Below are positions 2,173-57,998 of a stretch of 64,000 bases of DNA, in pieces. Made by a program: the position numbers and the translations under genes. This DNA comes from Vairimorpha necatrix (Eukaryota). The stretch covers positions 992,001-1,056,000 of the forward strand of contig CP142730.1 of the NCBI GenBank assembly GCA_036630325.1, written 5' to 3'. Under the pieces are notes generated by a model. That model saw only the letters and a list, made by a program, of their open reading frames with translations, made no database searches and had not been told where the DNA came from. How positions within the stretch are numbered: position 1 is the first letter of the stretch; each line of letters starts with the position of its first letter.

Positions 2173-3182
2173 TTACAATTCACTTAATTCAGTCTGGTTT
2201 TCATCATGTCTTTGATTCGTAATTCTTTTATGATACCTTCTGTAATATCTAACCCCTAATACTAAAAGAATTAAACAAATCCCCACAAATATAAACATTA
2301 AAAACACAAAACGCCCATAAAACATTGAAGACTTCTGTTTAAAATTGTTTATATTAAATAAAGGTTTAGTATTATTAATATTAAATTTCTTTAGCTTTAT
2401 GAAATTAATTATGCTATTAGCGTCAATTTCAGTAAAATTATCATTTATATAATGAATACTTGTCGAATTTCTATCTCTTTTTTCGATTATTTCACTATCA
2501 ATAATCAATGTTTTATTAAAAAAATCAAAATCCGCTTTTGAACATTTTGCTTTTATAAAGTTATCCTGAAAATTATTGTATTCTTTCTTCAAAAGTTTTT
2601 CAGCATAACTATTATAACACTTTATATAATTGGGGACAATTTCCTCACATAACACAATTATGAAAGAAGGAAAGTTTGCGCTAATACCTTCTTTTATAAA
2701 ACATGTATTATCTTTAATTATATTTTCCAGAGTCTCTTTAATGCCTATAGAATTGTTTATCGCATCAATGTGACAAATACGTAATATTTTATAAAATTTT
2801 TCAACGAAATTTATAAAATATTCTATAAAATCTAATTCCGAGTTCGTAAGCTTATACCATTTGTCGTTGTCAAATTTTATAAAATTTTTCATTAGCAAAT
2901 ATCCATCATATAATAAAGATTTTCTATCAGCAAAGCTCATTTCCATGACATCTTTCTCTGTTAACGTTTTAAAAACTTTATGGTTTGTTATTGTGTTCCA
3001 AAAAATGTCATAAAAAATTTTAACATTTTCATCAGATAAATTTAATTCTAAAATTCTGTCATTCAAGGATTACATTCATTGTCGCTTTTTACTATAGACA
3101 TAAGTATGTTATTTTCATATGTAGTGGTTTTTATTAAATTCACAATAAGTAATAAAGTTTTAAATGAATAAATAACGTTCAT
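2173..3182 (-). pseudogene. 6-Cys type I membrane family member A1, single frameshift (pseudogene or assembly error)
   Basis: CCCTTA-ATG at 3182 gives a signal peptide MNVIYSFKTLLLIVNLIKT...SDNECN. A 1-bp deletion near 3067-3070 separates it from the 2173..3066 ORF (FWNTITNHKVF, ICHID, NTCFIK, FPSF, C-terminal TM). Confidence 0.85.
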
Positions 3183-4859
3183 TAAGGGCTTTAGAAAAAA
3201 AAACCTATATTTAGTGACTAATAAGAACAATCTTAAATTTTTATTAAATTAATAACCAATTATTCTCATTTATAAATGACTAGAGTACTATAACTTTCCT
3301 TTATAAAACAATATAATACTAAATTTGGCGGATCCAATATAATTTGGAGATGTATGTGTATACAAAAAAATTTTACTAATGCTTCATGTCGGAAGTGTAA
3401 TTTCTTATAATGTAAAATTATTTCAAACATTTATAATATTGTTTAATTTATTATTTATACAAAAATAAAGTATAGAATATACACAAAGAAAACAAAAAAT
3501 TCATCATAATATATTTATAGATTTACCGCTAAAATGTATGAAATATCTGACTTTTATCAGTGGAGAATAATTAAAATAAATCTGATAGTTGGAATATGTT
3601 TTTTTTAGCAAGACCAAATCTGGAACTTAACTGATATAAAATTTTATAAAAAACGAAATTTTTCTAACAATATAAATTAGGTTAAAAATTGATAAAAAAA
3701 TTTGTTAGAAAAATAAAAAAACAAAGCTACAAAGAAACAATAAAAAAGACAAAAATGCATTTTTATATTCATTAAATATACATATAAATTTTGTATTAAA
3801 TATATTTGTTCATTTATGAAAAGAATACAGCCCCGTCAAATTAAAGTATATTAAAAAATGAAACCCCTTTTTGATGTTTATGATTATTATATAGCTCTTG
3901 TTTTGCTAAAAAAATTTGTAAATTTTCAAGTTTAGCAATAATATCAAAAAAAAAGTTCATGGTAAAAAAACATATTCTTGAGTAAATGTTCGTTTTATAG
4001 AATGTTTTTTATTGCATTTTATAAAACAGCAAATTTTTATATAGGCATCAAAAAATGCAAAAGAATTATATGACGGTTTTTATTAGTATATGAAAAATAT
4101 TTCTGTCATAGAATATTATGTAAACTTTTACTAAATTTTAATTTATAAGGCCGACGAAGAGATTTTATATGTGGTTGAAAACAAAAATAGTTATAATAAT
4201 TCATAGCAAAATATCTCAACAATTTTATAATAATAAATTGCAAAAACTTTAACTTTTTTTCATAAAATCTATGACACTTGAGTTTATGTAATATTTACCA
4301 TTGAGTTTTTGAAAAAAAATTATTCATTACAACTAAACTGAAAAAAAAATATGAACAATCTATACTTTGTTTCGGGGGACAGATACTTAATATTCTTCAG
4401 ATTTTAATGCTGATATTTAGAATATTATCTTATAAATTCTTCTCCATACTATCTCAAATCTGTTTCCATAGCCTAATTGTACAATTTTATAATCGAGTTC
4501 GAAATTTATTTATATAATTGTAAACCAAAAAAACGTACAATTTAATCCGTTTATTATAATTACGTGAAAACAACATAACATTTAACTATTATGTTCTTAT
4601 GTATATTGGTTCTTGATTCATAATAGTAATTTTTAAGTTGTTCGATTAAGTTATGCTTTTTAAAACCTATTGATATCAATATAATCGTAATCATATAACT
4701 TTTTAGAGTTGTAAAAATAATATTATTCAAACAAAAATACTTATTTGAAAATATTTTTTATTTATTTTTATGAATATATAATCAATAATCCAACCCTTAA
4801 CTAATAATAAACTTAACATGGTAAAGAATAAAAATTATCATTCTTAAACATAAACAAAA

Positions 4860-5350
4860 GAAGAGTTGTCAAGTTCCATAGAGCATTAAAAAATGCAGTT
4901 TATGTATAAATGAGGATGGATGATTGTCTAACAGAAAAGATGGTGATGACTTGCATCAGTCGAGGGACCCGGATATGTGAAGACGCAGGGATCTATGGTA
5001 GTAGCAAAGAAACGGTATGAACTGCAATAAGATCTGGCACAAGACATGACATTTGTAGTTTAGTGGTAATCCCACTGTTCACATTTAAGCTATCATGGCA
5101 ATATAGCTAAACCACCAGTGTTCAAAATTTAGAGAGATTAAAAAGAGAAGAAAATCAAAAACAAATTGTGTTGTAGTTGAAGAATGAGATAGACGGATAA
5201 AATTCAGTTTTATTGTTGGGAGACATGTGTAAAGAAAAATCTCATGCCCATAGACTTTATGTATTATAACAGGGAAAGAGAGTACCGCAAAGACCAATAC
5301 AAGAAGGGATAGTAAGACGTGAAAGATCGAAGCCCAGTCCATAGTCAGTT
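4860..5350 (+). mobile_element. Possible decayed retroelement (integrase-like) relic
   Basis: Purine-rich, less AT-rich stretch with fragmentary resemblance to integrase core motifs. No continuous frame. Confidence 0.25.
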
Positions 5351-7117: not shown

Positions 7118-8053
7118 TTATCGCTTAATAGATTGTAGTTCGACATCATATGATCGTTGAATCTTATTTCTTCTGTAAAATTTATATCCTATAAACAGAA
7201 CAGTTCCGATTAACATAAAACCTATAAAAACTATGAACCAAACATTTAAAAAAGAATCGGTTCTATTCTCATGAAATGTTTTAAACATATTATAAACTAT
7301 ATGTTCTGTTACATTGTTAATTTTATTACTAGTATAATCTTCATCGATAATATTTTCCAAATTAGTAATAATATCATAAGTTGCATTTTTAAAATCATAA
7401 TTCTCATCCATACAATTTGCAATTAACATTTGTTTCTGATTTTGATTGATTTTATCATAGAGAAATTCTACGCTCTCTTTGCCATAACAGCCGTAATAAG
7501 CTTTAATTAGACTTTTACATTTTTTATAAACAATTATTGGAAGACTTGAGTTGTGATTGTTCTGTATAAAACAGGTGTTTTCTCTTATGATTTCTTCAAA
7601 AGTCTCTTGTGTAGAATTTGACTTAATTATATTATCCTTATAACAGACGCGTAACATATTAAAATATTCTACTGTAATATTTATTATATTATTTAGAAAA
7701 ATTTTTTCGGAGGATGTAAGTAAATTTGTAATGTTATAATCCCATTTTTGTTGACCTAGACGTTCCAAATAACACTCATAAAGTGTCGATCTTCTATTAT
7801 CCCAATTATTTTCCGAAGTGTTATTTTGTGTCAGGTTGATAAAAATTTCATGATTTGTTATCTCATTCCAAACAATGTCATAAAAACTTCTAATGCTATC
7901 ATCTGATTGGGTTTTTAAATAAACTGTGCTATCTAATGAATCACAGATTTCTATATTGCTAATAACTGATTTTAACAAATCTACAACATTATTACTAGTA
8001 TTATTAACGTTAGATAGCAGTACAATAAATCTTAGTACATGTAAATACTTCAT
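7118..8053 (-). CDS. 6-Cys type I membrane family member A2 (311 aa)
   Basis: Start moved to the ATG after CCC (TTGCCCATA-ATG). Signal peptide, ICDSLD, VWNEITNHEIF, VCYKD, NTCFIQ, LPIIVYKKC, GCYG, ANC, TM helix, basic tail. Confidence 0.9.
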   Translation of the reverse strand: MKYLHVLRFIVLLSNVNNTSNNVVDLLKSVISNIEICDSLDSTVYLKTQSDDSIRSFYDIVWNEITNHEIFINLTQNNTSENNWDNRRSTLYECYLERLGQQKWDYNITNLLTSSEKIFLNNIINITVEYFNMLRVCYKDNIIKSNSTQETFEEIIRENTCFIQNNHNSSLPIIVYKKCKSLIKAYYGCYGKESVEFLYDKINQNQKQMLIANCMDENYDFKNATYDIITNLENIIDEDYTSNKINNVTEHIVYNMFKTFHENRTDSFLNVWFIVFIGFMLIGTVLFIGYKFYRRNKIQRSYDVELQSIKR

Positions 8054-8651
8054 TATGGGCAATAAATTTTTTTTATAAATATTTATAAAATAAACTTTGC
8101 CGATGTTAGTTTACTACTTTAAATATATATATATATTGTAACCACTAAAAAATTCCAGAAGACTCTTCGTGTCTTTCCTTTCATATATAATAAATTATAT
8201 TTAAAGTTGATTTTTTTAAAATTATTCGACTTTAAAAGAATTTTAACTGATTTTAAGCAAAAAAGAGATTTTCAACTTTACACTTATTTCAGTAAGGTAG
8301 GAAGAAACTAATCCAAGCATAAGTAAACTTTTTAATTACCTCTAATTAGTAAAAAGAAATTTTTTGTTTTGTATTATCATCTACTTAAGTTATAAAAATA
8401 TAAAAAAGTCAATGTACAATATAAAAACGAAACTTATACACTTCAACAGTATTTTTGTGAATGTTAATACAAAATTGACATTAGACTTGTTTTATTTTTT
8501 TCGTGTTGTTTATAGAACTTACAAAGTAAAAGTTTTTAGTTATTAAAATTATAATTCGTTGTAAACAATATAAATTGTTGCATATATTTTTAGTCTTTAG
8601 CTTATATTTACCAATATTGATATTTCAAAATATATTTATATATATATATAT

Positions 8652-9209
8652 AAAAATAAAAGATTTATTGAGTTAATTTTCAATTATGTTTAGATATTCA
8701 TAGCACAGCTTTCCCCGGTATCGCTCATGGGATTCAGCTCTTCACAGACTTTGGTTTCTGTGGAATTATTAATGTTTTCCAACTTCACTTTAGCAGCTTC
8801 ATTCCCCTTTGCCGACACCACTTCTTTAACAGTCGCCATATTCGCTAGTGCGCTTACAATTCTAGCCACTTCTTCTTCTCCTGCATCCTCCTGATCGTAT
8901 CCTCGTCGTCGTTCCAAAGAGATGGACTCTAGAGTCTTCTTCATCACAATAGACTGGATATATGCTTCCAGGTAGGGTTGGATTTCTAGCTCCCTGATGT
9001 ACTTTCTGTGATATTTGGTCACCACTCCATCCCATGTCATTACATAAGGAACTATTCTTGTCCGGGATTTATGTATTAGTCCCAGTTCATTTGCAAGAAG
9101 GTCATATTTTCTTAGTTTTTCATTCTCAACTATAGTAAGTCGATCCTGGTTGGTTATACCAACTTCAACTATTAAAATTTCTTTCTTCTTCTTGTCAAAC
9201 ACAAGAATA

Positions 9210-9211
<2 letters not shown>
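8652..9211 (-). mobile_element. Young 5'-truncated RLE non-LTR retrotransposon inserted in (TA)n
   Basis: Encodes DILVFDKKKKEILIVEVGIT...KYDLLANEL...TWDGVVTKYH. Near-identical to 39006-39563. Flanked by TA repeats at ~8638-8651 and 9212-9249. Confidence 0.92.

Positions 9212-9249
<38 letters not shown>
9212..9249. repeat. (TA)n microsatellite
   Basis: Perfect TA run abutting the 5' truncation point of the non-LTR element. Confidence 0.95.
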
Positions 9250-9252
<3 letters not shown>

Positions 9253-11321
9253 TATTGAATAAAGCATTAGACAAGGTAATATTTAAGTTATCATTTTTGA
9301 TAAATATTTGCTAATATATTGCATTTAACATGTAATTTAAAAAAATATAAATACGTATAACCTAGAGGGTATAATCCGATTTAATAAATCAATAATAAAA
9401 TTCAATTAAAAATGCCTTATAAATTGATATCAAACATAAGGTTTATTAATACTCGACGTTTAACTTCATATATTTAGCCTTATACGGAATAACATATGAT
9501 TTAATAAAAATTGTAAAATATTATGTTGTTAAATGTCAGTTGTGAAAATAAAAATAAAAGTTTAGGTAATATATATTGGACATCAGTTTTTTTCTCATTA
9601 GTTCAGTTGTAGATTTTTTTTCTTATTTTTTCTAAGTTAACTTCGTTTTTACGTCATTATTACGTGGTGTAAAAACATAGTTTAATTTAGATTTTTGATG
9701 TATGCGGATAGAAAATTTTTTATTTTAAGTAATTTAAAACATTTTACATTTTCAAATAATAATATATGTACAAAAATATATATGCAGATCAAAGTTTTAG
9801 GAAATTTTCATTAAGGCATTGGAATTTATTTTTAACTTTTGCATCATCATATGTGCGCTAGCTTTGAGTTATCTTTTATTAAATAATAATTCATAAAATG
9901 TTTTGTTGAAAAAAATTATGAATTTTTTTGATTTAATGTATATAAACATATTAGATCTATTTGTAATATAAAACGTACAACTATAGCATTTATAAAATCA
10001 TATAAATATCTTGACTTAGTTTTTAATTTAGTTCCTAAAAGAGCGGTATATATGTAATATGAAAAACACAACAGAGTCTCAAAATATAAATCGGTTAAGT
10101 AATGAAAGATATTGATTAAGGTTTATTTCATAAAATCTTTTTATTTAAATGGATCTTGTTATCATTTTTTTTTGATATTAAAGAGGTTCAAGGTGTCTTA
10201 AATTAACGAAATAAGTCTTAGGCCTCATATTACTAAAAATTATACACTTGGGGGAAATATCCTTTCATTTATAGGTGTTAATATAGTAAAAAGTGTTTTT
10301 CTATTTTACATATGTTTAGAAGATATAAAAGCAAATAATTTTTAGTTGATATTGTCTTACAATCAAATAAAACATTTTGTAAAAGGTTAAATTTTAGATT
10401 TCACTCTTTATACGAGATAAAATTTTACAATCTATCTATTATTTTGTACAAGTTGTTTATTTTGAGTCGGCATAATCTATTGAAATAAAAATTTACATTA
10501 CTATCTAAAGTATAATAGACAAAGGGTTTGCTTTATAAAATATATAAATAGGAAGCCTTTCGATCCATTTATTAGTATTTAATTGTAATATTTAGAAGAT
10601 ACAAATAAAAGTTTTGTGTGTCATGTTTAAGGATTTTTCTTGTTAACATATCAATCATATTAAATTTTTTGTATATGTTTGTTAAATTCGTTTAAGTATT
10701 TAAAATTCTAACTTAATATATCTCTTACTTACATCTACGCATCTATAGAATCCTAATAAAAAATCACAAAATTCAAGTATGTAAGCTTCGACATTTGGTG
10801 AAAAACAAAAAGAGTAAAGAATATTGTATATATTAATTTTCATTGTAACAAAATATATTACAAAATAGTAGAGACGCAACTAGAACAAAAAAAAATTTGC
10901 TGTTAAATAATTACTTTGATCTATTATAAATGATCTAAATAACTTTAAATTTACTGTAAATATTGTTATTTTCTCATAAGTTTAAATTATCACACTAAAA
11001 CCTAAAGAAAATAAGTACTTCTATAAATTTGATTAGAAAATGTTAACGTAGTTTGTAAAAAAAACGATTAAGTCCAAAAATATTTTTTTCAAAATTCGCT
11101 TCTAATAAATGATGAATCTTGATATTATATAGAAAAAAAAAACATGTTGTGTTATAATCAAAGAAAGAATCCGGATTAATACAAGTGATCAGATTTGGTT
11201 TATAAATGTAATAGATAGGAAATGACTATAATAAATAAATTAATTTTATATTTAAATGATAAAGTGTATTATTTGAAGCTTTAACACAAGAATATACAAT
11301 TTATTGTCAAATAACTTAATA

Positions 11322-12508: not shown

Positions 12509-13282
12509 AAGCAATTTCATTTTACCACCCTTACCAATATAAAAACAGAATTTTTGTTTTTAGCCCTGATTTTTGATAGTCGAAGCGGGAAAAATGTGAA
12601 GGAGCAGAAAAATAAAGTTTTAATAAAATAACATAATTACAAAAATTAAATAAAAATTTTTTCGTTTTTATTATACCTTCTTTCGTTAATTAATCAAGAC
12701 TTATCTCCATATAAACAATATTCATAAGGCTTTTACATCGTTTTAAACGATAATTCTTTAATAAATATTAATTATATAAATATATGATATTTAACTTTTG
12801 GAAGGAAAATATATGAACTCATATAAAATTGATGTTTTACTTATTTCAAAAGGACATAAAAGACTATCAAAAGAACATTTTGAAAATTGTTTGACTATAT
12901 AAATCAATGAAGTACTAAAAAAGACCTAATTAATATATATACCTTAAAATGATAAATATCTAACCTAGAATCTGTTTATAACAACAAAAACTGATTTAAA
13001 ACAAGTTTAACGCTATAAAAAACAATTGTAATGACAAAATAATATAATTTATTTACAAATTTAGACTGCTTTTAAACACATATTTTAAATAATAGTGTAA
13101 AAAAAAAATTTAAATACTGTTGCATATAAATTTTAATCAAATCAGATCTAAATTGAACTATTTTTGTACTATGAAGATTTTTGTTTATTCCTCTCCACTC
13201 TGGCGCCTCAACTTAAAAAACAGGCTGCACTAAAAAATTCTTTATTTATACTGACAAGGGCGTGATAAAGTGTAAATTAGCC
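12509..13282. mobile_element. Non-autonomous long-TIR element, older copy
   Basis: Colinear direct-orientation similarity to 55222-55999 over ~770 bp (e.g. AGTCGAAGCGG.AAAATGTGAAGGAGCA, TAACCTAGAATCTGTTT, ACAAATTTAGACTGCTTT). Imperfect ~85-bp terminal inverted repeats. Confidence 0.75.
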
Positions 13283-16843: not shown

Positions 16844-17725
16844 TTAAATGGGGCTGGTATGGCTCTTGTTTTTAATATTATATTTCTTAGACTTTTTTAT
16901 GTATCTTAACCCAAGAAACATAAATATTAAACCAGTCAACATTAAAATGATGATAAAAATAGACATACTACTCCATAAATTTGCTGTTTCTTCTTCTTCT
17001 TTAATATTAAATAAATGTTCAAAATTTATATGCTCAAGTACATCACTTACATTAGTATTTTCCATGCCAATTATTTTGAAATTAATATCATCATATGGAC
17101 ATTCTGCAATATACAATTGGTCTTCGTTGTAAATAAGATTGCTTAATTCTTTTCTATCACAATTTGTGTAGTGTCCAATAAGATCTCCGCAACTTTTAAA
17201 GAAAAAAGAAGGAATGTTTCTCTGTATTCCGTTTTTTATATAGCACGTGTTAATACTAATTATATTTTCAAGCGAATCTTTAGTATAGTTAGTACTATTT
17301 AACACATCCTTAAAACAAATACGCAATATGTCATAATATTCTGTTGTACTGTTTATAAGTTCTTGAATAAATTTTTTTTCAAATGTAGTAAAGGAATTTG
17401 ACAAATCGCTGTCTACATCTTTATTCAAAATCAAGTCTATATATCCTTGCCATAATTTTGTCTTTTTGTTGTTAAAACTATTTATAGAAGTATCAGTTTT
17501 AATCATTCTCTTGAAGATATCATGGTTTGTAATTATATTCCACACCATTTCGCAAAGAATTCTAATATTATTCTCTGACAGACTTTTTTCTTGAATTCTT
17601 TTTTCCAGGGAATCACATGGTTCTTCGTTGTATATAATAGAATTTATCAAATCAATATATTTTTTATTAGATTCTACATTAATTGTCGTACTTAGTACTA
17701 ATTGAATTAAAAATAACGACCACAT
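16844..17725 (-). CDS. 6-Cys type I membrane family member A5 (293 aa)
   Basis: Start moved to CCCCAA-ATG (MWSLFLIQLVLS...). PCDSLEKRI, VWNIITNHDIF, ICFKD, NTCYIK, IPSFFFKSC, AECP, TM helix. Confidence 0.9.
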   Translation of the reverse strand: MWSLFLIQLVLSTTINVESNKKYIDLINSIIYNEEPCDSLEKRIQEKSLSENNIRILCEMVWNIITNHDIFKRMIKTDTSINSFNNKKTKLWQGYIDLILNKDVDSDLSNSFTTFEKKFIQELINSTTEYYDILRICFKDVLNSTNYTKDSLENIISINTCYIKNGIQRNIPSFFFKSCGDLIGHYTNCDRKELSNLIYNEDQLYIAECPYDDINFKIIGMENTNVSDVLEHINFEHLFNIKEEEETANLWSSMSIFIIILMLTGLIFMFLGLRYIKKSKKYNIKNKSHTSPI

Positions 17726-26262: not shown

Positions 26263-27162
26263 TTAGGATATATATTCAAAGGATGAGTTTGCTGCTTCGT
26301 CCCATTGCTTTCTATCTCTTTTTTTGTAATATATAAAACCCAAATAGCTAAAAATACAAATAATTACAAAGAACATTAGAATAACAGGCAAAACAATCCA
26401 TAAATAATAACTTGACTCACCAACATCATTGACTTCTGCATTTATAACATTGTTTATATCTTTAAGAGCTGCTGTAAAGTTAGTATTAAAATTTTGTAAT
26501 TCGATATTATGATTATTTAGACACTCGCCTCTATCAAAGACCTCATTATTGTAGTGTATTGCTTTTAAGTTATCGTCTGTTCTTACTGTTTCAGGACATT
26601 GATTATAATATACAGATGCCTTATTACACAATTTATAAACAAATGACGGCAAATGACTACTAATGCCGCCTTTAATAAAACATGTATTTTCTCGTATTAA
26701 AATTTTCATAGCATCTAGAGGAGCCATTGTTTTACTCATTGTATCTTTAAAACAAATACGTAACATATCGTAAAAAACAAAAATGGCACGTAACATTTCA
26801 TCTTTGAATCTTGTTTCATTAACTGTAAGGGCATCAAGATATTTTTCATCTGGTTCTTTTAGAGATAAATTTTCTAAAAAAGCATTTTTTAGTTTAACAC
26901 TTACGTTATTGTAACTAAAATCTGATATGTCATCTTCAATCATTCGCTTGAAAATTTCATGATTAGTTATTGTATTCCAAAAAAAATCAAAAAAGAAACG
27001 GACTTTTTCACGAATAAGAAAATCCGCATTAATTCTACTATCTAATCCTATACATAAATTATCAGTATTAATATAATTGGCTAATATAGCAGCATGTTCT
27101 TCATTGGAATGTATCATGCCCGACAAGAATATGATAGAGTGGATAAAAAATAATGAACGCAT
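26263..27162 (-). CDS. 6-Cys type I membrane family member A7 (299 aa)
   Basis: Start moved to CCCCCCA-ATG (MRSLFFIHSIIFLSG...). LCIGLDSRI, FWNTITNHEIF, ICFKD, NTCFIK, LPSFVYKLC, QCP, GEC, TM helix. Confidence 0.9.
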   Translation of the reverse strand: MRSLFFIHSIIFLSGMIHSNEEHAAILANYINTDNLCIGLDSRINADFLIREKVRFFFDFFWNTITNHEIFKRMIEDDISDFSYNNVSVKLKNAFLENLSLKEPDEKYLDALTVNETRFKDEMLRAIFVFYDMLRICFKDTMSKTMAPLDAMKILIRENTCFIKGGISSHLPSFVYKLCNKASVYYNQCPETVRTDDNLKAIHYNNEVFDRGECLNNHNIELQNFNTNFTAALKDINNVINAEVNDVGESSYYLWIVLPVILMFFVIICIFSYLGFIYYKKRDRKQWDEAANSSFEYIS

Positions 27163-36885: not shown

Positions 36886-37889
36886 TTAACATCTTGATAC
36901 TAAATGTTGTCTGCGCGAGTTAATTAATGTCTTTTGTTTTTTTAGTTTGTAACGCAAATATCCAAATCCTAAAATTACAAAAAATAAAATCATTAGAGTT
37001 ACTGCAATAACAAAAAAATTAAAAGAATTTAAAATATAATATGTTTCTTAGTTAACATTATTAATTTCTGACGCCTCAATATCTTCTTTATTATTTACGT
37101 CAATATATTTATCAATTGAATCAATTAATTCATTGGGCGGTTTATCATATAGTAAATTATCTTTCGTAGTAATACCAAACATATTGTTAAAATTATCAAT
37201 GTTCATATTTGTAATATTAGTAAAATCATAATCATCATTGTAACATTCAGCCTTTAATAATTGATTATGTTTTTCTTTTATATTGTTGAATATGTATACT
37301 CGACCATCTGCATTCTCACATTCATTATAATATTGCACGACTTTTCTACACAATTTATTAACAGTTGATGGAAATTTTTTACTCAAACCATTCTCTATAA
37401 AACACATGCTTTGATTAATGGCATTTTCAAGAGCTTTTTTAGAAGAACTACCATTGTTTATGAAATCTTTATAACAAAGATGTAACGTTTTGATATATTC
37501 TACTGTTATTATATATAGGTTGTCAGTAAATTTTTGCTCATACGGTCTTAACTTATTATATTCAATAATACTATATTCGTTGTCAATGAAATTTTCTAAA
37601 TATACCTCCCTAAGTTTTTCTTTTCTTTGTTAAAACTATACTCAGATGTATCAGTTTGTATCATCCTTTTAAAAATTTTATTACTTGTTATTGTATCGAA
37701 AATAAATTCACCGAACTGACGAAAATCGGCAAATTTAAGTCCATTTTCTTCTCTTATATAGTTAAAATATTGACATTCGTTTTTACTATTATCAATTATA
37801 TCTATTATATCGTCTTCACTATGTGACGTTTTTATAACATTAAATAAGAAAATAATTTGCTTAAGTAAATTTAGTTTATGTATTTTCAT
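36886..37889 (-). pseudogene. 6-Cys type I membrane family member A10, one frameshift and one in-frame stop
   Basis: CCCCAT-ATG at 37889. A 1-bp deletion near 37626-37628 breaks SFNKRKEKLREVYL. The frame then runs through LCYKD, SMCFIE, FPSTVNKLC to TAA at 37048-37050 and continues in frame to a TM helix and tail ending at 36886. Confidence 0.85.
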
Positions 37890-39005: not shown

Positions 39006-39910
39006 AAATAAAAGATTTATTGAGTTAATTTTCAATTATGTTTAGATATTCATAGCACAGCTTTCCCCGGTATCGCTCATGGGATTCAGCTCTTCACAGA
39101 CTTTGGTTTCTGTGGAATTATTAATGTTTTCCAACTTCACTTTAGCAGCTTCATTCCCCTTTGCCGACACCACTTCTTTAACAGTCGCCATATTCGCTAG
39201 TGCGCTTACAGCTCTAGCCACTTCTTCTTCTCCTGCATCCTCCTGATCGTATCCTCGTCGTCGTTCCAAAGAGATGGACTCTAGAGTCTTCTTCATCACA
39301 ATAGACTGGATATATGCTTCCAGGTAGGGTTGGATTTCTAGCTCCCTGATGTACTTTCTGTGATATTTGGTCACCACTCCATCCCATGTCATTACATAAG
39401 GAACTATTCTTGTCCGGGATTTATGTATTAGTCCCAGTTCATTTGCAAGAAGGTCATATTTTCTTAGTTTTTCATTCTCAACTATAGTAAGTCGATCCTG
39501 GTTGGTTATACCAACTTCAACTATTAAAATTTCTTTCTTCTTCTTGTCAAACACAAGAATATCAGGCTTATTATGGGTTACCTTTATATTAGTGGATATT
39601 CTCGTATCTACTCTTATTTCTGCACGATCATTTTCCATGATCTCTTGTACTGAGTGTCCACGTATTTTCTTTGTCTTCTTAAACCCATATTTAATACATA
39701 GTAAGAGATGAATGCATCTAACTACCTCGTTGTGTCTTTTCATATAATCAAAACCCAACATTCGATCACACTTGGTAGCTAAATGATCCACGGTCTTCCT
39801 ATGAGATCCACAATGGGGACATTGTCCCTCTTGTCCACAGAAGATATTTCTATCCTGTAGGAAGCAGTAAATTGCTTCGGATCTAGCCTGATTGTTTCCT
39901 TTAACCAGCC
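39006..39910 (-). mobile_element. Young 5'-truncated RLE non-LTR retrotransposon (R4/Dong-like) with 12-bp TSD
   Basis: Open frame LVKGNNQARSEAIYCFLQDRNIFCGQEGQCPHCGSHRKTVDHLATKC (CCHC finger)...RHNEV...NKPDIL...EVG...KYD. Direct repeat TTTAGATACATA at 38994-39005 and 39911-39922, followed by (TA)n. Confidence 0.92.
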
Positions 39911-45149: not shown

Positions 45150-46202
45150 ATGAAACATGATATGGGAATTTTTAACTTCTTAGCTCAATTAATCTTCTTC
45201 TTAAAAACATGTTTATGTACTTCCAATGGTATAGACTATAATAGTAATCGAATTAAAATTTGTCAAACACTAGGTGGTGTTGCTGAGGTAACTGGCTATC
45301 CCTCAATTATATCTGAAAAGTACGTAGAAATGGTTTGGGAAATTGTAACAAAACATGATGTTTTCATAAATTTTCTTGCTAAAAATAAATTAAAAATTTA
45401 TTGGGCAGAAAGGATTGTTTTTTTAAAGGAGGCATTTACAGAAATTGTAAAGCCCAAGTTCGGCTTAAAATTACCTAATCCTTTTTCACTAGAAAATTAT
45501 AGCATATCGGAACAATGTTTTATTAATGACCTTATAAATGTCACGACCGGATTATATAAGCAGTTTGGCCTTTGCTATAATAATGCACTAGATAATTCGA
45601 CACATGCTAGAAAATGGACGAGAATAGTATATGAAAATACATGTTATAAACCGAACGGGAAAGGGAACTTACCGTCAGTAATTTATAGAAAGTGCGACGA
45701 ATTAAAGAATTATTTTGAAAATTGTTTTGGATTGGAGGGAAAAGACAATATAACAAAAATCTTAAAAAAAAACGAGCACGATCTTAAAAATTCAATTTGT
45801 CATGATAGTACCCCATTTAAATTGGCACTTCAAAATGATATTTTTAAATCTAAATATTTTAAAAATAATATTAATTCTGATGCTCTTGTTAGTGATACTG
45901 TTATAAAAACAAATGATAACTTAGAAAGTGATAATGATTATGAAGTCGAAAATGCTAGCTTTTTGAAAAAAAATCAAATTGATTTATTTTTCAGTGAAAA
46001 TTATCGATTTATAACGACAATGTGTATAATAATTTCTATAGCTGCTTTCATGCTTTTAATGTATCATTTTCTGTTTAAAAAGTTGTTTAGTTCAAAAGTT
46101 CATCCATACAAGAAAGCTGTTATTGTAAAAACAAGAATCAACAATGGCAATCATTTGAAAAATAATTTCTATGATAATCCTACGATATATTTGTATCAAT
46201 AA
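45150..46202 (+). CDS. 6-Cys type I membrane family, subfamily B member B1 (350 aa)
   Basis: Start moved to GCCCCC-ATG. KICQTLGGVAEVTGYP, VWEIVTKHDVF, EQCFINDLI, LCYN, NTCYK, LPSVIYRKC, NCFG, SIC, TM helix. Confidence 0.9.
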   Translation: MKHDMGIFNFLAQLIFFLKTCLCTSNGIDYNSNRIKICQTLGGVAEVTGYPSIISEKYVEMVWEIVTKHDVFINFLAKNKLKIYWAERIVFLKEAFTEIVKPKFGLKLPNPFSLENYSISEQCFINDLINVTTGLYKQFGLCYNNALDNSTHARKWTRIVYENTCYKPNGKGNLPSVIYRKCDELKNYFENCFGLEGKDNITKILKKNEHDLKNSICHDSTPFKLALQNDIFKSKYFKNNINSDALVSDTVIKTNDNLESDNDYEVENASFLKKNQIDLFFSENYRFITTMCIIISIAAFMLLMYHFLFKKLFSSKVHPYKKAVIVKTRINNGNHLKNNFYDNPTIYLYQ

Positions 46203-49200
46203 TTCGTTTATTAAAAATTTATTTTTACTGTTGCATGTTAAAGAAAATAATTGACGATATATGTTTAATTAATTTATATTTTTACTTGTATTTAACAAAA
46301 ACGTTTTCTTATGTGCAGTAAAAAAAAAACAATTTAAATTAGATAGATAATTTTTTATTCTAGTTTCTGACAAATAGTCATCAAAAAACTGCCTCTACTA
46401 GTTATTTGTTTATAAGAATTTTAATTATCATTTAAGTAATAAGAGATAAAGTTTTTACGAAAATAAGTAATAGGGATATTTAGTTCTGTATACTTTAAAA
46501 AAAATTTCTTATGATTTTATGAAGATGATAATTTTCTTAAAAGTCTTCTTATTCAATAAAATTGATTGTATTCAAACATTATTAATCTAAAATTATACAT
46601 TAAATATACATATCAATTATACATGTACACGAATTAGAATATGATTCAATTTTATACACGTTCTAATTCATAAATTAGTTTTAATAATTATAGTGACCAA
46701 ATAGCTCGTTTAATATAATTAGCATTTAAATTCTAATATTAATAACCTATCTCTTAAATAGTGCGCAAGGGTCATGATTTTTATATATAAAAAAATATAG
46801 GTTTGCAATTGGAAAATGAATACTCGTTTCGTAAATAGAAATTTTTGCTGTAGTGTGTCAGATCACGACCTAAACATATGAATCGATTAAAGACGGTTTA
46901 TCGGGTATATTAAAAAAAAGTTGCCAGTTAAGTCACATAAAGCTTTGTTTGTAATCATTTAAATAAGATTATCAATTATATATTTTGATAGTTAAATTTG
47001 TACATTTCTATATAATATCTATTATAATGTTTTCAACCTATATGTTGAATTTTAACCTTAAAAATATATGACAAAACTTGTCACGCGACATAATTCCTGT
47101 GCCTAGTATGGTCAAGTAGGACTCTAAGACTTAAACCCCTCAGCTGCCACGCCTTAAAACAGCCGAGTTATAGACGTAAACAAATACGTCTTCGTCAACA
47201 AACAATGATGAATAAGAAAATGTCTAATCTGGTGAATAATGTAAGAATATGGAAAGTTGTACAAGGGACCAGCTTTCCCTCCAATGAATTATAAGTTTGA
47301 CATTTAATAAAAATAAAATATAAAAAGATGAATTTTTAGCCTGTACGTTGGCACGAAAGATTTAAAAATCAATAAAAATTTTAAGAATAATTAGATTTTA
47401 AACAAGCCGAGCGGCCAGGAAGGCATCTAGCACCACAAAACTAATTTTATTAAGAAAGTCTAATTAACATTTTTGTGTTAAAAAAATTATTCTGGTGATG
47501 CAAAATTTTTAGATAAAAAATTAAATCCCTTTAATGATGTCAAGTATATTGTATTAATATAACCTAATTATTAACGTTAATTATATAAAAAGTAGCAATT
47601 TTATTAGTAAAAAATGTTACACATTAAGTAGTGTTGCAGATATTGGCCAGTCGTTTATACCACCATTGGCTTTTTTTGAAATTTTATAAAATATCATTAC
47701 AGAGCATGAATACCTATAAAAGTGTTTAGAAAATCGCTCGATATATTTTTTATTTGAAAAACGAAATTTAAAACAAAGCTTGCATATTTATAATTAGGTA
47801 TGTCCGAATTGATATAAAGGCAAGAGGGCGTTTTCATCAAGAAAAATTTGTACAGAATGAACAAAAATTTCTTGCTTATGTTGTAGGTACCACAAAAAAA
47901 TAAGTTCTTTAAAATCTTGAGTTTTTGTTACAAAATTCCTCGAGAGTGGGGTACCAAAGGAAGATACAATTGAAGATATGATACTTAACAATTGTGTTTT
48001 TTTCCAAAAGCTATTAATAAATGACATGTATTGCTTATAAAATGTTGAAAGGCCAATTAAAGTGATCTATAGGTTGTAAATCGGAGATAAGAATGACAAA
48101 TTACATTTAATAAATTAAAAAAAAAAGTTATAAAGATTCTGTGTGTTATAATAATATTCTTTCTGCTCATTATGGTAATTCTTACATAACATATACTACC
48201 ATAATGATGAATCTATTGTAAATAGCACTGTTAAGTTTCTCGACTTCTTATGTTAAATAAATCAAAATTTTTTACTAGAAATGACCAACCTGGACTTGAT
48301 ATATCGATCATAAAGATTTAGTTTTTTTTTACGTTAATTATTCTTTAATACAACTTATATTAGCGTACTTTTTCTGTGCTTTTTATATTATTTTGTATTA
48401 AGAAATTACTGCCACAAAAAATGAAAGAAAAAGAAACAATTATGAATGTGGTATTATAAATATTACAAATCATTTATTTTTATTTTTTCAATTTTCCTTT
48501 TTTAAAAAATTGACCATTCGACCGGTCTATTCCAAAAATCAAATATTTATTTCTTTTTTGCCCTGACCCCCACCGGATCATGAAAAAGATTACGATCATT
48601 TCCCTTGGAAGAGAAGACCAGTGAAGGGCTATGCAGCTAGGGATCAGACTTCCGTAAAGGATGCCCAACGAAGCCATAATAAAAACAATAAAACAATTAG
48701 TTTTATAAAATTTTATTTATTTAGAGGTAGCTCCTCTGGATTACGTCAATGAAGAAAAAAAGTTTTGATTTTCAAAAAAAATTTGACCTACAAAAAATAC
48801 TTGAAATTTATGTATAGATTGTTCTTTAGTTTGGAATTCAGGGGTTTTAATGATTAGGGTTATTATTTTTTGTTAGTTTCTAAGATAATATTTATAAATT
48901 TTATTGAGTGTTTAATGTAAAGTCTTTCTAGGTTTAATAAATTACAACAAAACAGACTGTGTAGTTCTGTAATACTGGTGTGTATATGCATTTAACAAGA
49001 TTTGACAATTGAGTTTTTTTCTTTGCAAGTAAAAGATGGGGCGAAAGCTTACATAAGGACCAAAGGGATTTGAGCTGTATCCACATTAAAATGGTACTTT
49101 GAATTTTTATCTAAAATACTCTTAATATAACTTTTCAACGCAGCAAGCTGCCATATACATTGAACTTTGGCTTCAGGAGAACACTTTCCATTTATGACTC

Positions 49201-49953: not shown

Positions 49954-51245
49954 GGCGCTACTTAAAAATTCGCACCCCCTAAAAAAATTACATTGACCAA
50001 TTAAATTTATATAAAAAAAAAATTTTTAACACTTAAAATTATATTTAAAACAATATTTTTATGAAAATATGAATTTACAAAAGTTAAAATATTTAAAAAA
50101 ACAGTTATAACATATTATTTAGTTCAAAAATTTAATTACTATAACATAGGAAAAATATCAAATATTTTTACGAAGGCTAATTTGATTGTAAATGGTTTTG
50201 AATATTCTATATTTTCCTTTTTCCATTTAAACTCATCTAACCAACATTTAATTCTTATTTTATTAATTCCTCCACGCTTTCTATAATCATGCTTAAGATG
50301 CGACCACATATTTTCTACATAATTTGTATTTTGTCCTTCTTCATTACAAAATCCCATAGAGTGATTTACCACACTATGGTGAGAACCAAATTTACTTATA
50401 GCCCGTGAATAGGATGGATAACCATCAGTTACTATATCCGTGCCTACTTTTACATATTTTTTTAATATTAGTAAAATCGTTTCCCATTTTCTATTGGGTA
50501 TTAGTTGCACAAAAAAACTCTCTACAATTTCCTTCCAACACACCTCCTATTATCCACTGAATTCCAGGTTCAGAATCCAATCGACTTGACGGATTCGATA
50601 CTATAATTCCATTACAAATAGCTGTTTCGTCTATTTGTATCCTCTGACCAACTCCACCTATCGTTGTAACAACAGTAGAAGACTTGGAAATTGTTTTCAT
50701 TATTATTTCTTTTACAGAAATATATGTTGGTTCAGAAGTTTCACACATGTTGATAGCCTGAAAATTAGTATATGACAAACACCAACCATAAATGCAACGA
50801 AGAATTTTTTTTAAATTAAATATCTAAAGATTCATATTTAGAACCTTTATTTAATGAACATCTTCGTTACAAATTTTTTTGCTACATTTGTGCCCCGTTC
50901 CTTGAGAAAACAAAGATATGTTTTGAATAAACATAATTCCTTTGCACTGATCATTAGTACAGGGAATACAATTATATAACAAGTTGTTCTTCAATCCGTA
51001 GTCGATTGCCCTGTCATAGTCAGTGAAAATAGGATTGTATGGATTGAATTGAAGCATTTCGTCCATCATCCTGCTCATTATAAGGGATAGATAAAATAAA
51101 AAAATTTCACGTTCAAAATACCATTACTTAAAAATTCGCACCCCCGGAAAAAAATCCTTTAAAATTTGATTTAATCTCATTTTATACTAAATAATTTTTT
51201 CAGTGAACGTATTTTTTTAGGGGGTGCGAATTTTTAAGTAGCGCC
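49954..51245 (-). mobile_element. Full-length Merlin transposon (1292 bp) with perfect TIRs and 8-bp TSD
   Basis: 35-bp perfect TIR GGCGCTACTTAAAAATTCGCACCCCCTAAAAAAAT at both ends. TSD ATATTATT at 49946-49953 and 51246-51253. Confidence 0.95.
50139..51078 (-). pseudogene. Merlin/ISXO2 transposase split by several frameshifts
   Basis: Three ORF pieces carrying CIPC/CKG/KCSKKIC, IGGVGQRIQIDET, WIIGGV, VTDGYPSY, VVNHSMGF, TNYVENMWSHLK, WLDEFKW. One frameshift is an extra base in the A7 run at 50511-50517. Confidence 0.92.
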
Positions 51246-53517: not shown

Positions 53518-54723
53518 ATGAAACAGTTTATAATTTTTATCAGTTTAATATATAATAATACTAATAGAATCAGTAACGTTATAAGTAAAAGTATGTATAT
53601 AAAGAACCACCATAAAATTTGTGATACAACGAATGGTGTAGCAGAAATAACAGGACAACCTGCCATTGCTCCAAAAATTTTTATTGAGATGATATGGAAC
53701 ATCGTAACTGATCATTCTGCCTTTAAATATTTCGTAAGTAATAATATTACAACATATCCTTTTTATAATAAAGAAATTAAATTAAAAAAAGCGTATCAAA
53801 AATTAGCAAAACATATGTTTAGTTTGAAAAGTAGAAAATTTAATTACCACACAAGATTTAATACAAATGAACAAACTTTTATTAATGACATGATAGGTGT
53901 TGCAACTGGATATTATAAAATGTTAGGCTTATGTTATAAGAATGTTCTTGATAAGGCGATTTTCGTGGAGGTCAAAGCTAAAGAAATAATGAATAGAAAC
54001 ATATGTTTTATACCCAATCGTGAAAACGAGTTACCTGTAGTTGTATATAAATTGTGCAACGGGGTAGTAAAGTTTTATGTAAATTGTAGGATTGGTACCA
54101 AAAGCAAAATATTAAATTTAATAAAACAAACAAAAGAACAAATATCGACTTCTTATTGTTTTAATAATTTAAAAAAAAGTGATATTTCTGGTGTTAAACT
54201 GCAAAATTTAGTTAATAATACACGTGATACTAATATTATTGATTATACAACGAGTATTTCTAATATAAACACTAATACTACTATATACGAAGGTGTTTCT
54301 TTTTCCAACGTTACTTATCCTTACATCATTCCTAGTGTTCTCAATAATAACACCATTGATAATGCTATTACTTTCCAAACTTATTTTGTTAATGATTTTG
54401 CTAATAATAGCGACGTAAAGAACATAAAAATATCAGAATTCTCTATTAATGACGATTACAAATTAAATATTGATAAAACAAATAGTAATACAAAAAATTC
54501 AATAATTAATGACAGAAGTACGTCATTTAATAAGATTTTTTCTTTAATACCGACGACAATTGTTGCCATTGTTATTATAATTATACTGGTGGTTTTATAT
54601 TATTTTTTATATAAGAAATATTTTGTCTCTGATAATCGTCGTTATATGAGAAGGTCAAGAAGAAGTAAAGATTTGGGAGTTTTTAGAATAGATGAAATTG
54701 TCGAATGTACAACAACACTTTGA
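53518..54723 (+). CDS. 6-Cys type I membrane family, subfamily B member B2 (401 aa)
   Basis: Start moved to C8-A-ATG. HHKICDTTNGVAEITGQP, IWNIVTDHSAF, GVATGYYKMLGLCYK, NICFI, LPVVVYKLCNG, NC, SYC, long Asn/Thr stalk, TM helix. Confidence 0.92.
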   Translation: MKQFIIFISLIYNNTNRISNVISKSMYIKNHHKICDTTNGVAEITGQPAIAPKIFIEMIWNIVTDHSAFKYFVSNNITTYPFYNKEIKLKKAYQKLAKHMFSLKSRKFNYHTRFNTNEQTFINDMIGVATGYYKMLGLCYKNVLDKAIFVEVKAKEIMNRNICFIPNRENELPVVVYKLCNGVVKFYVNCRIGTKSKILNLIKQTKEQISTSYCFNNLKKSDISGVKLQNLVNNTRDTNIIDYTTSISNINTNTTIYEGVSFSNVTYPYIIPSVLNNNTIDNAITFQTYFVNDFANNSDVKNIKISEFSINDDYKLNIDKTNSNTKNSIINDRSTSFNKIFSLIPTTIVAIVIIIILVVLYYFLYKKYFVSDNRRYMRRSRRSKDLGVFRIDEIVECTTTL

Positions 54724-55221: not shown

Positions 55222-55999
55222 GGAGCATTTCCACTTTAGTTCCTTTTACAAATATAAATACAAAATTTTTTATCTTTAGCCTTGTTTTCGAAAGTCGAAG
55301 CGGAAAAAATGTGAAGGAGCAAAAATCAAAAAAATAAAGTTGTAATAAAATAGCATAATTACCAAAAATAAATAAATTATTCCTTCTTTCGTTTATTAAT
55401 CAAGACTTATGTTTATTATACATTGCTTGGTATAATAGAGATAAATCTTATTTAATCTCTATATAAACTATATTATATATGGTTTTTACTTCATTTTAAA
55501 CAATATTTCTTTAATAAATTATAATTATATAAATATACATTTCTACTTTTGGACGGGAAATATAAATATCATATAAAATTGATTTATGATAAAAAAGATT
55601 ATAAATATTACATATTACAAGATTTTTTTACTATAAAAACCAATAAAGTATTAAAAAAGAATTTAATAAAATATATATTGTTTCCTAAAAACTATAATAA
55701 CATAACCTAGAATCTGTTTTTAATAACAAATTCATTTTAATGACAAAGAATATTACATATTTCTACAAATTTAGACTGCTTTAACCACATAAAACAGTAA
55801 TACGTCATTAATAAAGATTTCAAATAATGTATATAATAAATATTGATCAAATCAGATCTTAATGAGATTAATTTTTTGTTTTATGTAGATTTTTATTTGT
55901 TCATTTCCGCTCTGGACGCTTCGATTTCAAAAAAACAAGGCCAAAAATAAAAAATTCTGTATTTATATTGACAAGGGGAGGCTAAAGTGAAAATTGGCC
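55222..55999. mobile_element. Non-autonomous long-TIR element (Merlin-like ends), better-preserved copy
   Basis: GG...CC termini and ~85-bp imperfect TIRs (CACTTTAG...AATATAAATACA.AATTTTTTAT.TTT.GCCTTGTTTT...TCGAAGCG). Candidate 8-bp TSD TTTGTTAT/TTTATTAT (7/8). Homologous to 12509-13282. Confidence 0.8.
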
Positions 56000-56429
56000 T
56001 TTATTATAGATATTTACAATAACATTCATAGCTGTTTGTCGATTTGTAACTTTATTTTAAAGACTGATTGTTTTAAAACGGCTTGAAAATCCATCATTTT
56101 TTTATTTGGTACTGATATCATTTAATAATAGTTTGTATTCGTAGAAAATTCAACATAAAAGTATATAGATTGCTAACTAAATTTGTAATTTTTAAATAAA
56201 TTTTATCAATTTTTTGTTTGATTAATTGTACCTTAAATTTATTTGTGCACTTTTATAGTTTAACTATAAAATTTAATTATAACAAAAAAATTATTAATTT
56301 TTTAATGTATCAAAAAGTTTGTTTGACTTGAAAATGTTAAAGTCTATATATGCTTTTTAAACATAATTTAAAAATTAAAATACTAATTTTACAATGCACT
56401 CTATCATTAAAGAATTTAAGCAACCCTCA

Positions 56430-57998
56430 ATGAGACATTTATTTTCTATATTTAATCTAATTATTATTAGGCCAAATCTTATATCAACAAAAAAGAATTC
56501 AATAAGCAAACAACGTTATATAATTGATCATCATAAAATTTGTCATACTTTGGATGGAGTTGCAGTGGCGACAGGTCAGCCTTATATTCATCCTTTGACT
56601 TATCTTGAAATAGTGTGGGATGCTTTAACAGAAAATGATATATTCAGAAGTTTAATTGATATCACCAAAATTAAAAAAAGTTTTTACAAAAGAGTTTTCA
56701 AGTTAAAGATTGCGTATTTGGAATTGGTCATGCCACAACTTAATTTAAAGAAGCATAGGGATTTTTCATTAAGTAAATTTAGGAACACGGAACAACATTT
56801 TATTAATAACGCTGTAGGTGTGGCAACGGGATATTATAAGATGTTAGGACTTTGCTATAAAAAGAGTCTTGATAAAAGCTTGTTAATAGGAGACGAAATA
56901 AAAAATATAATATATAAAAATACGTGCTATATATATAATGGGGAATATGAAATTCCTTCGATAATTTTCAAGATGTGCAACGGCCTTGTAAGATACCATG
57001 TAAGATGTGAAATTGAGTTAAAAAAAAAAATTTTGCAAATGTTAAAAAATAACAAGAAGCTCATATCGAATGCCGTATGTTATAACAACATCTCAAACAA
57101 AGCACCAATCAACATCGAAAATATGCGTTCCCACTCTAAAAGAAGTGTTATTGATTATAGCAATTTTACCAGTGTGATTAATGATACTAATAAAACTCAA
57201 GGTATTAATTATACCTCTACTTCTAATATACATGATTTTGTCAATATTGACGACATACAAAAGTATCCTCATATAACTACAGAAAATGATATTAGCAAAA
57301 ACACTAATCCTAATATAATGGAAAACTTTGATCATAACACTACTGGTATTGTAAGATATGAAGGTAATTCCAGGATGTTTATTGATGCTCCTACGACTGA
57401 AAGTATTGATTATATATCTACTACTTTTCTGCCCGAGTTTATTAACGTTACTGAGTCGATTATTAATGCTACTATAACCAATACTTTTAAGCACATACCT
57501 ACTGCTAACTTAGTTAATTTTTCTGCCATTACTGAAAATGTTTATATAAATACTATTGCCAGAGAAATTGATCATACAACTGTAACGGAAGGTATCGACT
57601 CTAATATTGTAACTGAAGACGTTGTCCAAATCAATACCACTAAAGCCATTGATAATACCATAAATAATAACAATTACAAAAATGCCATTTTAGAGGATAC
57701 AAGAGTTAATAATGATATTGAAGATGGATTTAAGAACCTTAAAAATTATACAAATAATGGTAGCACTAACATTGGTTTTTTAAAAAGTGAGTATTACCAA
57801 TCATTTTGGGATAATAACTTTTCTTTTATAGTAAATACATCTGCTTTGATGGTTTTGATTATTGTTATAATGATTATTTACTATTTTGTATTTAGGAAAT
57901 ACTTCAACAAAAAAGGAACTCGCAAAATATACGAATCTGATAGTAATGTGTTGGAATTAACAGAATTTAATTCTTTATGTACATCTAAAGATAAATAG
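56430..57998 (+). CDS. 6-Cys type I membrane family, subfamily B member B3 (522 aa)
   Basis: Start moved to CCCTCA-ATG. HHKICHTLDGVAVATGQP, VWDALTENDIF, GVATGYYKMLGLCYK, NTCYI, IPSIIFKMCNG, RC, AVC, ~250-aa Thr/Asn-rich stalk, TM helix. Confidence 0.92.
   Translation: MRHLFSIFNLIIIRPNLISTKKNSISKQRYIIDHHKICHTLDGVAVATGQPYIHPLTYLEIVWDALTENDIFRSLIDITKIKKSFYKRVFKLKIAYLELVMPQLNLKKHRDFSLSKFRNTEQHFINNAVGVATGYYKMLGLCYKKSLDKSLLIGDEIKNIIYKNTCYIYNGEYEIPSIIFKMCNGLVRYHVRCEIELKKKILQMLKNNKKLISNAVCYNNISNKAPINIENMRSHSKRSVIDYSNFTSVINDTNKTQGINYTSTSNIHDFVNIDDIQKYPHITTENDISKNTNPNIMENFDHNTTGIVRYEGNSRMFIDAPTTESIDYISTTFLPEFINVTESIINATITNTFKHIPTANLVNFSAITENVYINTIAREIDHTTVTEGIDSNIVTEDVVQINTTKAIDNTINNNNYKNAILEDTRVNNDIEDGFKNLKNYTNNGSTNIGFLKSEYYQSFWDNNFSFIVNTSALMVLIIVIMIIYYFVFRKYFNKKGTRKIYESDSNVLELTEFNSLCTSKDK

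What the first reader, a model, noticed from the sequence alone, without database searches (positions are those of the whole stretch)
2173..57998. 56-kb array of 14 hyper-diverged 6-Cys type I membrane protein genes: candidate variant surface antigen/receptor family
Seen: the 13 full-length copies share signal peptide, C1 (xCxx[LIFT]), a W-x-x-[IL]-T-x-[HN]-x-x-F-like motif, E-x-x-F, C2 (C[YFH]K), C3 (N[TM]C[FY]I), [LIF]P-x-x-x-x-K-x-C4, Y-x-x-C5, C6, stalk, TM helix and short basic tail, while intervening residues differ widely. The relic retains several of these motifs. Intact, recently broken and decayed copies coexist among TEs. I do not recognise the domain. Inference: a lineage-specific, probably helical, three-disulfide ectodomain family under birth-and-death evolution, architecturally analogous (not claimed homologous) to variant surface families of other intracellular parasites.
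Basis: partly seen in the sequence, partly recalled or inferred. Interest (0 to 1): 0.8.

Follow-up and report, generated by a model that had tools for sequence, protein, structure and literature searches.

The report
Moth-parasite membrane protein gene family
A single-celled parasite of caterpillars carries about 60 copies of an undescribed membrane protein with a helical outer domain; the copies are old and conserved rather than fast-switching antigens, and their stalks are oddly rich in sugar-attachment signals for an enzyme this parasite seems to lack.

Summary
The array is real but larger than described. They belong to a family of at least 62 loci on 9 of 12 contigs, 33 of them in one 190-kb cluster. 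The genome is microsporidian; databases name its family members Vairimorpha necatrix 'SP-containing membrane proteins'. The ~200-aa six-cysteine domain folds confidently as a helical bundle (pLDDT 86), with no significant Pfam, PDB or fold match. It is not species-specific: V. ceranae has a four-cysteine relative. Antigenic variation is not supported: dN/dS is below 1, site tests find no positive selection (low power, saturated), and copies carry their own start signal and signal peptide and share no cassette sequence. Best reading: host-facing type I binding proteins of a known kind, the microsporidian large gene families. Unexpected: stalks hold 1.4 times the expected N-x-S/T sequons (N-x-T 1.55), specific for spacing and direction, yet no oligosaccharyltransferase was found. 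Expression, location and glycosylation are untested.

The parts
2173..3182 (-). Family copy, broken by one frame change near 3070
   Evidence: CCC motif before the ATG at 3182
7118..8053 (-). Intact member, 311 aa
11322..12230 (-). Intact member, 302 aa
13860..14873 (-). Intact member, 337 aa; its ectodomain is the folded model
16844..17725 (-). Intact member, 293 aa
18765..19595 (-). Intact member, 276 aa, shortest stalk
26263..27162 (-). Intact member, 299 aa
29366..30262 (-). Intact member, 298 aa
31169..32259 (-). Family copy, one frame change near 31950 in a homopolymer run; young pseudogene or assembly error
36886..37889 (-). Family copy with two lesions: frame change near 37620 and an in-frame stop before the TM helix
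41125..41918 (-). Decayed relic, many stops and frame changes
   Evidence: (77.6 bits)
45150..46202 (+). Intact member, 350 aa, plus-strand subfamily
47534..48150 (+).
   Evidence: (15.9 bits, controls at most 5.0)
53518..54723 (+). Intact member, 401 aa, plus-strand subfamily
56430..57998 (+). Intact member, 522 aa, 240-aa N/S/T-rich stalk

Best explanation
An expanded family of parasite type I membrane proteins in a Vairimorpha microsporidian. Shown: each gene has its own start context and encodes a hydrophobic N-terminus, a ~200-aa helical six-cysteine domain, an N/S/T-rich stalk of 13-492 aa, one TM helix and a short basic tail. Inferred: the protein enters the parasite ER, forms disulfides and is displayed on the parasite plasma membrane. 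The stalk holds the domain at different heights towards the host cytoplasm or host membranes. The domain works as a non-enzymatic binding module: a fixed core (W, F, P, Cys) carries variable loops, chiefly residues 75-92 and 168-178 of the model. Copies arose by old local duplications in TE-rich DNA and are kept under purifying selection as a repertoire with different partners or stages, not as an archive for antigen switching.
For: Architecture: 49 of 50 with TM; more Lys/Arg after than before the TM in 47 of those 49; no KKxx tail in 50. CCC within 10 nt of the ATG in 9 of 10 intact window genes against 56 of 2220 window ATGs. Confident helical model, pLDDT 86.3, pTM 0.85; same order of helices and strands in the V. 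ceranae relative. No invariant polar residue: best His column 29 of 50, best Asp 35 of 50. Site classes of dN/dS 0.02-0.40. Tree clusters by location. In Nematocida, members of large families with C-terminal TM helices were tagged as host-exposed (PMC5423893, passages).
Against: No expression or location data for these genes. Two named members show low or blank spore RNA counts in a published V. necatrix table (16 and empty), which neither shows nor excludes expression in growing stages. No binding partner is known. Disulfides facing a reducing host cytosol would have to be buried (inference). The sequon excess in the stalks is not explained by this reading.
Confidence: 0.55

Rival explanations
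1. Variant antigen family with mutually exclusive expression and switching, like VSG, var or Msg.
For: Many divergent copies, pseudogenes, a fixed cysteine frame with variable loops.
Against: No site class above 1 (low power, synonymous sites near saturation, tree length 95.8 per codon). Only 16 of 1225 upstream and 10 of 1225 downstream flank pairs give a blastn hit, the strong ones between recent duplicates; exact shared coding DNA over 25 nt occurs only in 5 close pairs. The cluster ends about 180 kb from the contig end. Lepidopteran hosts have no antibodies (established knowledge, recalled).
Confidence: 0.1
2. Structural or trafficking proteins of parasite-made membranes (spore plasma membrane or wall, polar filament, polaroplast, sporophorous vesicle), not host-facing.
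For: A disulfide-type domain suits an oxidising or extracellular site. S/T-rich stalks (median 20% S+T) suit O-mannosylation; a PMT is present and O-mannosylated tube and wall proteins are known (PMC3879972, PMC10381864, passages). Purifying selection fits.
Against: About 60 copies here against one V. ceranae hit is unlike a core structural part; the two named members have low or blank spore RNA.
Confidence: 0.2
3. The proteins are truly N-glycosylated, by an unrecognised parasite enzyme or by the insect's oligosaccharyltransferase after reaching the host secretory pathway.
For: Stalk N-x-S/T 226 against about 160 in 10-residue local shuffles (0 of 300 as high); N-x-T ratio 1.53-1.56; reversed 0.92-0.94; N-x-x-S/T 0.88; N-S/T 1.01. 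N-P-S/T 1 against 5.6; tails 9 against 11.2; 71 cytosolic-type ORFs 1.07. Lumen-only excess with Thr preferred is the pattern described for human TM proteins (PMC5562741, passages).
Against: No STT3 or GT41 found; none annotated in a published V. necatrix table; E. hellem is said to lack N-glycosylation. Noticed after the fact. The folded domain shows no spacing-specific excess. V. ceranae relative 3 against 3.0. Eleven of 39 longer stalks fall below expectation. A local preference of the O-mannosyltransferase could give the same bias.
Confidence: 0.12
4. Degenerate HD-domain phosphohydrolases (SAMHD1/dNTPase-like) displayed on the surface.
For: The five best VIA-align rows are HD proteins (best 2q14, Z 5.3, rmsd 4.5, 152 aligned); Cas3 HD recurs for the second model (Z 5.3, rmsd 4.2, 123 aligned).
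Against: These Z values lie below the tool's noise level for helical proteins; Foldseek gives 0 matches at E<=0.001; no conserved His or His-Asp pair.
Confidence: 0.03

Closest known systems
Microsporidian large gene families, especially Nematocida NemLGF3 and NemLGF4 (PMC5423893, passages seen)
   Same: At least 10 paralogues enriched in signal peptide or TM helix, genus-restricted, often adjacent, no known domain; NemLGF3/4 have C-terminal TM helices and are not enriched at chromosome ends.
   Different: No sequence link: the 52 profile hits are from this genome, V. ceranae and two unnamed records. This family has signal peptide and TM together, plus a cysteine frame. Host exposure was shown for Nematocida, not here.
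Vairimorpha ceranae NCER_101438 / AAJ76_3900026599 (P0048, P0053)
   Same: Homologue (E 3.7e-13); same architecture and order of helices and strands; keeps C1, C2, C4, C5.
   Different: Uncharacterised; lacks C3 and C6; short stalk; the only V. ceranae cluster found; no sequon excess.
Variant surface families: Plasmodium PIR/RIFIN, Pneumocystis Msg, trypanosome VSG (features recalled)
   Same: Multicopy, helical disulfide-type ectodomain, membrane anchor, pseudogenes.
   Different: None appears among the listed fold matches; no positive selection, no cassette junction, cluster not at the contig end.
HD/PDEase phosphohydrolases (2q14, SAMHD1, Cas3 HD)
   Same: Weakly similar helix packing (Z up to 5.3).
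   Different: No metal-binding His/Asp set; a secretory-pathway cysteine-rich domain.

Membership tests
Microsporidian large gene family (definition in PMC5423893) | At least 10 members in one genome | tested here: met
   62 loci by hand tally; 50 intact ectodomains aligned
Microsporidian large gene family (definition in PMC5423893) | At least 2-fold enriched in signal peptide or TM helix | tested here: met
   49 of 50 with TM by hydropathy; a published V. necatrix count is 382 TM genes among about 3000
Microsporidian large gene family (definition in PMC5423893) | Restricted to genus or species | tested here: inconclusive
   49 of 52 hits from this genome, 1 V. ceranae, 2 unnamed records of unknown taxon
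Microsporidian host-exposed proteins | Shown in contact with host cytoplasm or nucleus | not testable with these tools
   needs tagging or immuno-EM
Antigenic-variation family (VSG/var/Msg type) | Mutually exclusive expression and switching | not testable with these tools
   no RNA holder listed
Antigenic-variation family (VSG/var/Msg type) | Diversifying selection on the ectodomain | tested here: inconclusive
   no support in M1a/M2a, M7/M8, M8a/M8 on 49 and 23 sequences, but synonymous sites are near saturation and alleles were not available
Antigenic-variation family (VSG/var/Msg type) | Silent cassettes sharing recombination sequence, moved into an expression site | tested here: not met
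   own start context and signal peptide per copy; no shared flank block or conversion tract beyond recent duplicates
PIR/RIFIN/Msg/VSG folds | Structural similarity of the ectodomain | tested here: inconclusive
   not among listed rows; an unlisted family is not excluded
HD phosphohydrolase | Conserved H...HD...D metal site | tested here: not met
   best His column 29 of 50, best Asp 35 of 50; invariant residues are W and four Cys
HD phosphohydrolase | HD helical fold | tested here: inconclusive
   Z 5.3, rmsd 4.5, 152 aligned
OST-modified N-glycoprotein | Lumen-side excess of N-x-S/T with Thr preferred | tested here: met
   stalks only
OST-modified N-glycoprotein | STT3 and lipid-linked precursor pathway in the genome | tested here: inconclusive
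   none found; the same search found 1 PMT where a published table lists 2, so a very divergent enzyme can be missed
OST-modified N-glycoprotein | Glycan on the Asn | not testable with these tools
   needs glycoproteomics

The most novel reading that the evidence does not exclude
These are N-glycoproteins of a parasite that has lost the canonical N-glycosylation pathway. Either an unrecognised microsporidian enzyme reads N-x-T/S, or the proteins (or their mRNAs) reach the insect ER, are glycosylated by the host oligosaccharyltransferase and are displayed on host membranes with an undescribed helical fold. Selection for sequons in the fast-evolving stalks would be the footprint.
Probability: 0.12. 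Interest if true: 0.92.

Novelty: new member of a known kind. Interest (0 to 1): 0.55.

Why it matters
Most microsporidian host-interface families have no structure or mechanism. This one is large (about 60 loci), was annotated one gene at a time as 'SP-containing membrane protein' with poor models (pLDDT about 35 for two named members), and folds confidently once its own paralogues are aligned. That gives a defined, apparently unmatched domain to express, localise and solve. The sequon excess makes a standing assumption, that microsporidia lack N-glycans, testable with one glycoproteomics experiment.

Tried and rejected
Pfam: no curated cut-off reached by 12 family ORFs or pieces among 17 proteins; no family matched more than 2 of 50 ectodomains. 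PDB sequences: 2 rows, E 0.6 and 0.77. Foldseek: 0 matches at E<=0.001 in PDB and in viral models. VIA-align: no Z>=8; PIR, RIFIN, Msg and VSG were not listed. ESM Atlas: no usable feature hit for a window member; viral-glycoprotein rows at 0.75-0.79 for the V. ceranae protein are below chance level. Word-based searches added no new taxon; phage collection none; JGI metagenomes none with one protein. RNA runs: no RNA holder listed, so no reads were laid. Tail motifs: YxxPhi 20 of 50 against 26 shuffled, KKxx 0. Shared upstream motif: only AT-rich words. Sequon artefacts tested and not sufficient: local composition (10- and 20-residue shuffles), close paralogues (38 of 50 kept), the conserved site after C6 (distal stalk 239 against 185, reversed 181), N/S/T-rich non-secreted segments (56 against 63 in 84 segments). 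Earlier scan notes: nothing relevant. Literature: no description of the family or of sequon selection in microsporidia in searches; the library lacks most subscription papers and bioRxiv supplements were closed. No complex prediction was sent, as no binding pair is claimed.
Full report
Verdict. The count, the limits of the array and the 'variant antigen' reading need correcting, and one feature it did not see (sequon excess without a known enzyme) is the most surprising part.

Organism. The window is G000:C5:992001-1056000 in a 15.0-Mb, 12-contig genome, 24.5% GC. Its SSU rRNA scores best on the microsporidian Rfam model. Database entries identical to family members outside the window are named Vairimorpha necatrix 'putative SP-containing (membrane) protein' or 'uncharacterized' (10 of 10 looked up). 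V. necatrix infects Lepidoptera (PMC10759460; abstract passage and section 9 read).

Observation. A profile from 11 window proteins finds 15 loci: 10 open genes, 3 full-length copies with a frame change (one also has an in-frame stop), and relics at 41.1-41.9 kb and 47.5-48.2 kb. Reversed and shuffled controls reach 5.0 bits at most. Its motifs hold in 9 to 13 of 13 copies. Nine of 10 intact genes have CCC just before the ATG, against 56 of 2220 window ATGs. The family-wide figure, 45 of 50, is inflated because the start was chosen partly by C content.

Extent. A hand tally gives 62 loci on 9 of 12 contigs, a lower bound; 33 lie in C5 925-1118 kb, which ends about 180 kb from the contig end. 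On a 50-sequence tree the label 'in this cluster' needs 3 changes against 17.0 for shuffles (0 of 500 as low), as local duplication predicts. The window's minus-strand and plus-strand genes are different subfamilies. Stalks run from 13 to 492 aa and tails have a median of 25 aa; 49 of 50 have a TM helix, 47 of these with the basic side after it (hydropathy only, no SignalP or TMHMM).

Relatives. HMMER over 1.84 billion representatives gave 52 hits. Of these 43 are exact products of fetched loci, 5 are other gene models of such loci and 1 was then found in the genome. Three are foreign: V. ceranae NCER_101438 and two unnamed records. All three keep the type I layout and C1, C2, C4, C5. C6 is missing in all three and C3 in two, as in one distant member of this genome. 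The domain is therefore older than this species; the six-cysteine expansion is not. Co-loss, and strands at both cysteines in the model, suggest a C3-C6 bond; the other pairings are not determined.

Fold. With 50 paralogues AlphaFold2 gives pLDDT 86.3 and pTM 0.85: a helical bundle with a very small sheet. The V. ceranae protein gives the same order of elements. No Pfam, PDB sequence or Foldseek match is significant. VIA-align's best rows are HD phosphohydrolases at Z up to 5.3, below noise for helical proteins, and no His/Asp site is conserved. I treat the domain as unassigned and non-catalytic.

Selection. The 15 closest pairs have dN/dS 0.15-0.61. Codon models were my own implementation, with branch lengths from IQ-TREE and one scale factor; the M0 likelihood was within 4 units of IQ-TREE's. 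They ran on 49 sequences, because one of two genes on a shared locus id dropped out, and on a 23-sequence subclade. M0 gave 0.15 and M7 classes 0.02-0.40 (0.42 with other codon frequencies); M2a and M8 gave no gain (largest statistic 1.06, p 0.59). Synonymous sites are near saturation, so episodic positive selection is not excluded. The least constrained stretches are residues 75-92 and 168-178 of the model. Flanks share no block beyond recent duplicates, and exact coding matches over 25 nt occur in 5 of 1225 pairs, all close paralogues. 'Hyper-diverged' thus reflects age under constraint more than rapid diversification, and nothing resembles a silent-cassette system.

Sequons. Noticed after the fact and then tested with 12 patterns. 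In stalks N-x-S/T occurs 269 times against 192.8 expected (50 proteins). After keeping 38 of 50 proteins under 45% identity and shuffling within 10 residues it is 226 against 160 (0 of 300 shuffles). N-x-T is 1.53-fold; reversed, adjacent and longer spacings are 0.88-1.01; forward exceeds reverse in 28 proteins and the opposite holds in 7 (p 0.0005). N-P-S/T is 1 against 5.6. Cytosolic tails give 9 against 11.2 (low power), 71 cytosolic-type ORFs from 600 kb give 1.07, and 19 other signal-peptide ORFs give 1.20 (z 1.7, with N-x-x-S/T as high). A sequon lies within 18 residues after C6 in 31 of 49 against 18.3 expected. Against: the folded domain shows no spacing-specific excess; the V. ceranae protein shows none (3 against 3.0), nor does one unnamed relative, while the other has 10 against 3.9; 11 of 39 longer stalks fall below expectation, and the window's ten distal stalks alone give only 25 against 18.3; z values assume independence. 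The pattern matches that described for human TM proteins (PMC5562741, passages). Yet no STT3 or GT41 was found. A published V. necatrix annotation and InterPro table has no 'oligosaccharyl', 'STT3', 'ribophorin', PF02516 or PF00953 entry, and all 21 'dolichyl' places are O-mannosyltransferases (supplement 1 of PMC10759460, term searches). E. hellem is stated to lack N-glycosylation. The control search found one PMT where that table lists two, so a very divergent enzyme can be missed. The bias is real; its cause is open: true N-glycosylation by an unknown route, a PMT preference for Asn at -2, or something not thought of.

Mechanism. Shown: architecture, conserved fold, constraint, local duplication and loss. 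Inferred: passage through the parasite ER, display on the parasite membrane, binding of host or parasite partners through variable loops, height set by the stalk. [quoted passage not shown] Confidence 0.55; internal or spore-membrane role 0.2; true N-glycoprotein 0.12; switching antigen 0.1; HD enzyme 0.03. Expression is untested apart from two named members with spore counts of 16 and blank.

Novelty. It meets the definition of a microsporidian large gene family, a known kind, as a family I found described in none of ten literature searches (open-access library only). The V. necatrix paper's section on abundant folds names serpins, ricin-B lectins and spore wall proteins, not this family (its network figure was not visible). 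PMC3879972 and PMC10381864 were seen as passages; other listed papers only as listings. Interest 0.55.

Noticed in passing
window 22709-23650 (-): A 313-aa non-family gene inside the array: N-terminal hydrophobic anchor, Ser-rich linker, no Pfam family over cut-off.
   Followed up: partly
L084:1788-2783 and L084:7542-8477 (G000:C5 about 1098 and 1104 kb): Two distant family members that have lost most domain cysteines and end in longer hydrophobic stretches; they sit inside the cluster.
   Followed up: partly
L102:1093-2073 (-), G000:C7: Distant 326-aa member closest to the unnamed foreign protein P0051, 2 kb from a canonical member on the opposite strand; keeps C2, C4, C5 only.
   Followed up: partly
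L018:1330-2295 (G000:C1): The one member of 50 whose frame ends without a TM helix; secreted form or broken copy.
   Followed up: no
window 112-969 (-) and 50142-50823 (-): Split IS1595/ISXO2-like transposase remnants.
   Followed up: partly
window 8620-9310, 38650-39911, 1328-1864: Near-identical fragments (99% over 300 nt) of what looks like the 3' end of a non-LTR retroelement; label recalled, no Pfam hit over cut-off.
   Followed up: no
window 61050-62312 and 62451-64000: A 1.26-kb stretch with 54-nt inverted ends (89%), then a 22-bp tandem array just upstream of a gypsy-type gag-RT frame.
   Followed up: no
window 12531-13165 and 55246-55875: Two copies of a roughly 630-bp non-coding element, 73-87% alike in blocks.
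   Followed up: no
L137:480-3557 and L141:3997-7078 (G000:C9): A pair of signal-peptide genes duplicated about 43 kb apart, with the same lengths and N-termini.
   Followed up: no
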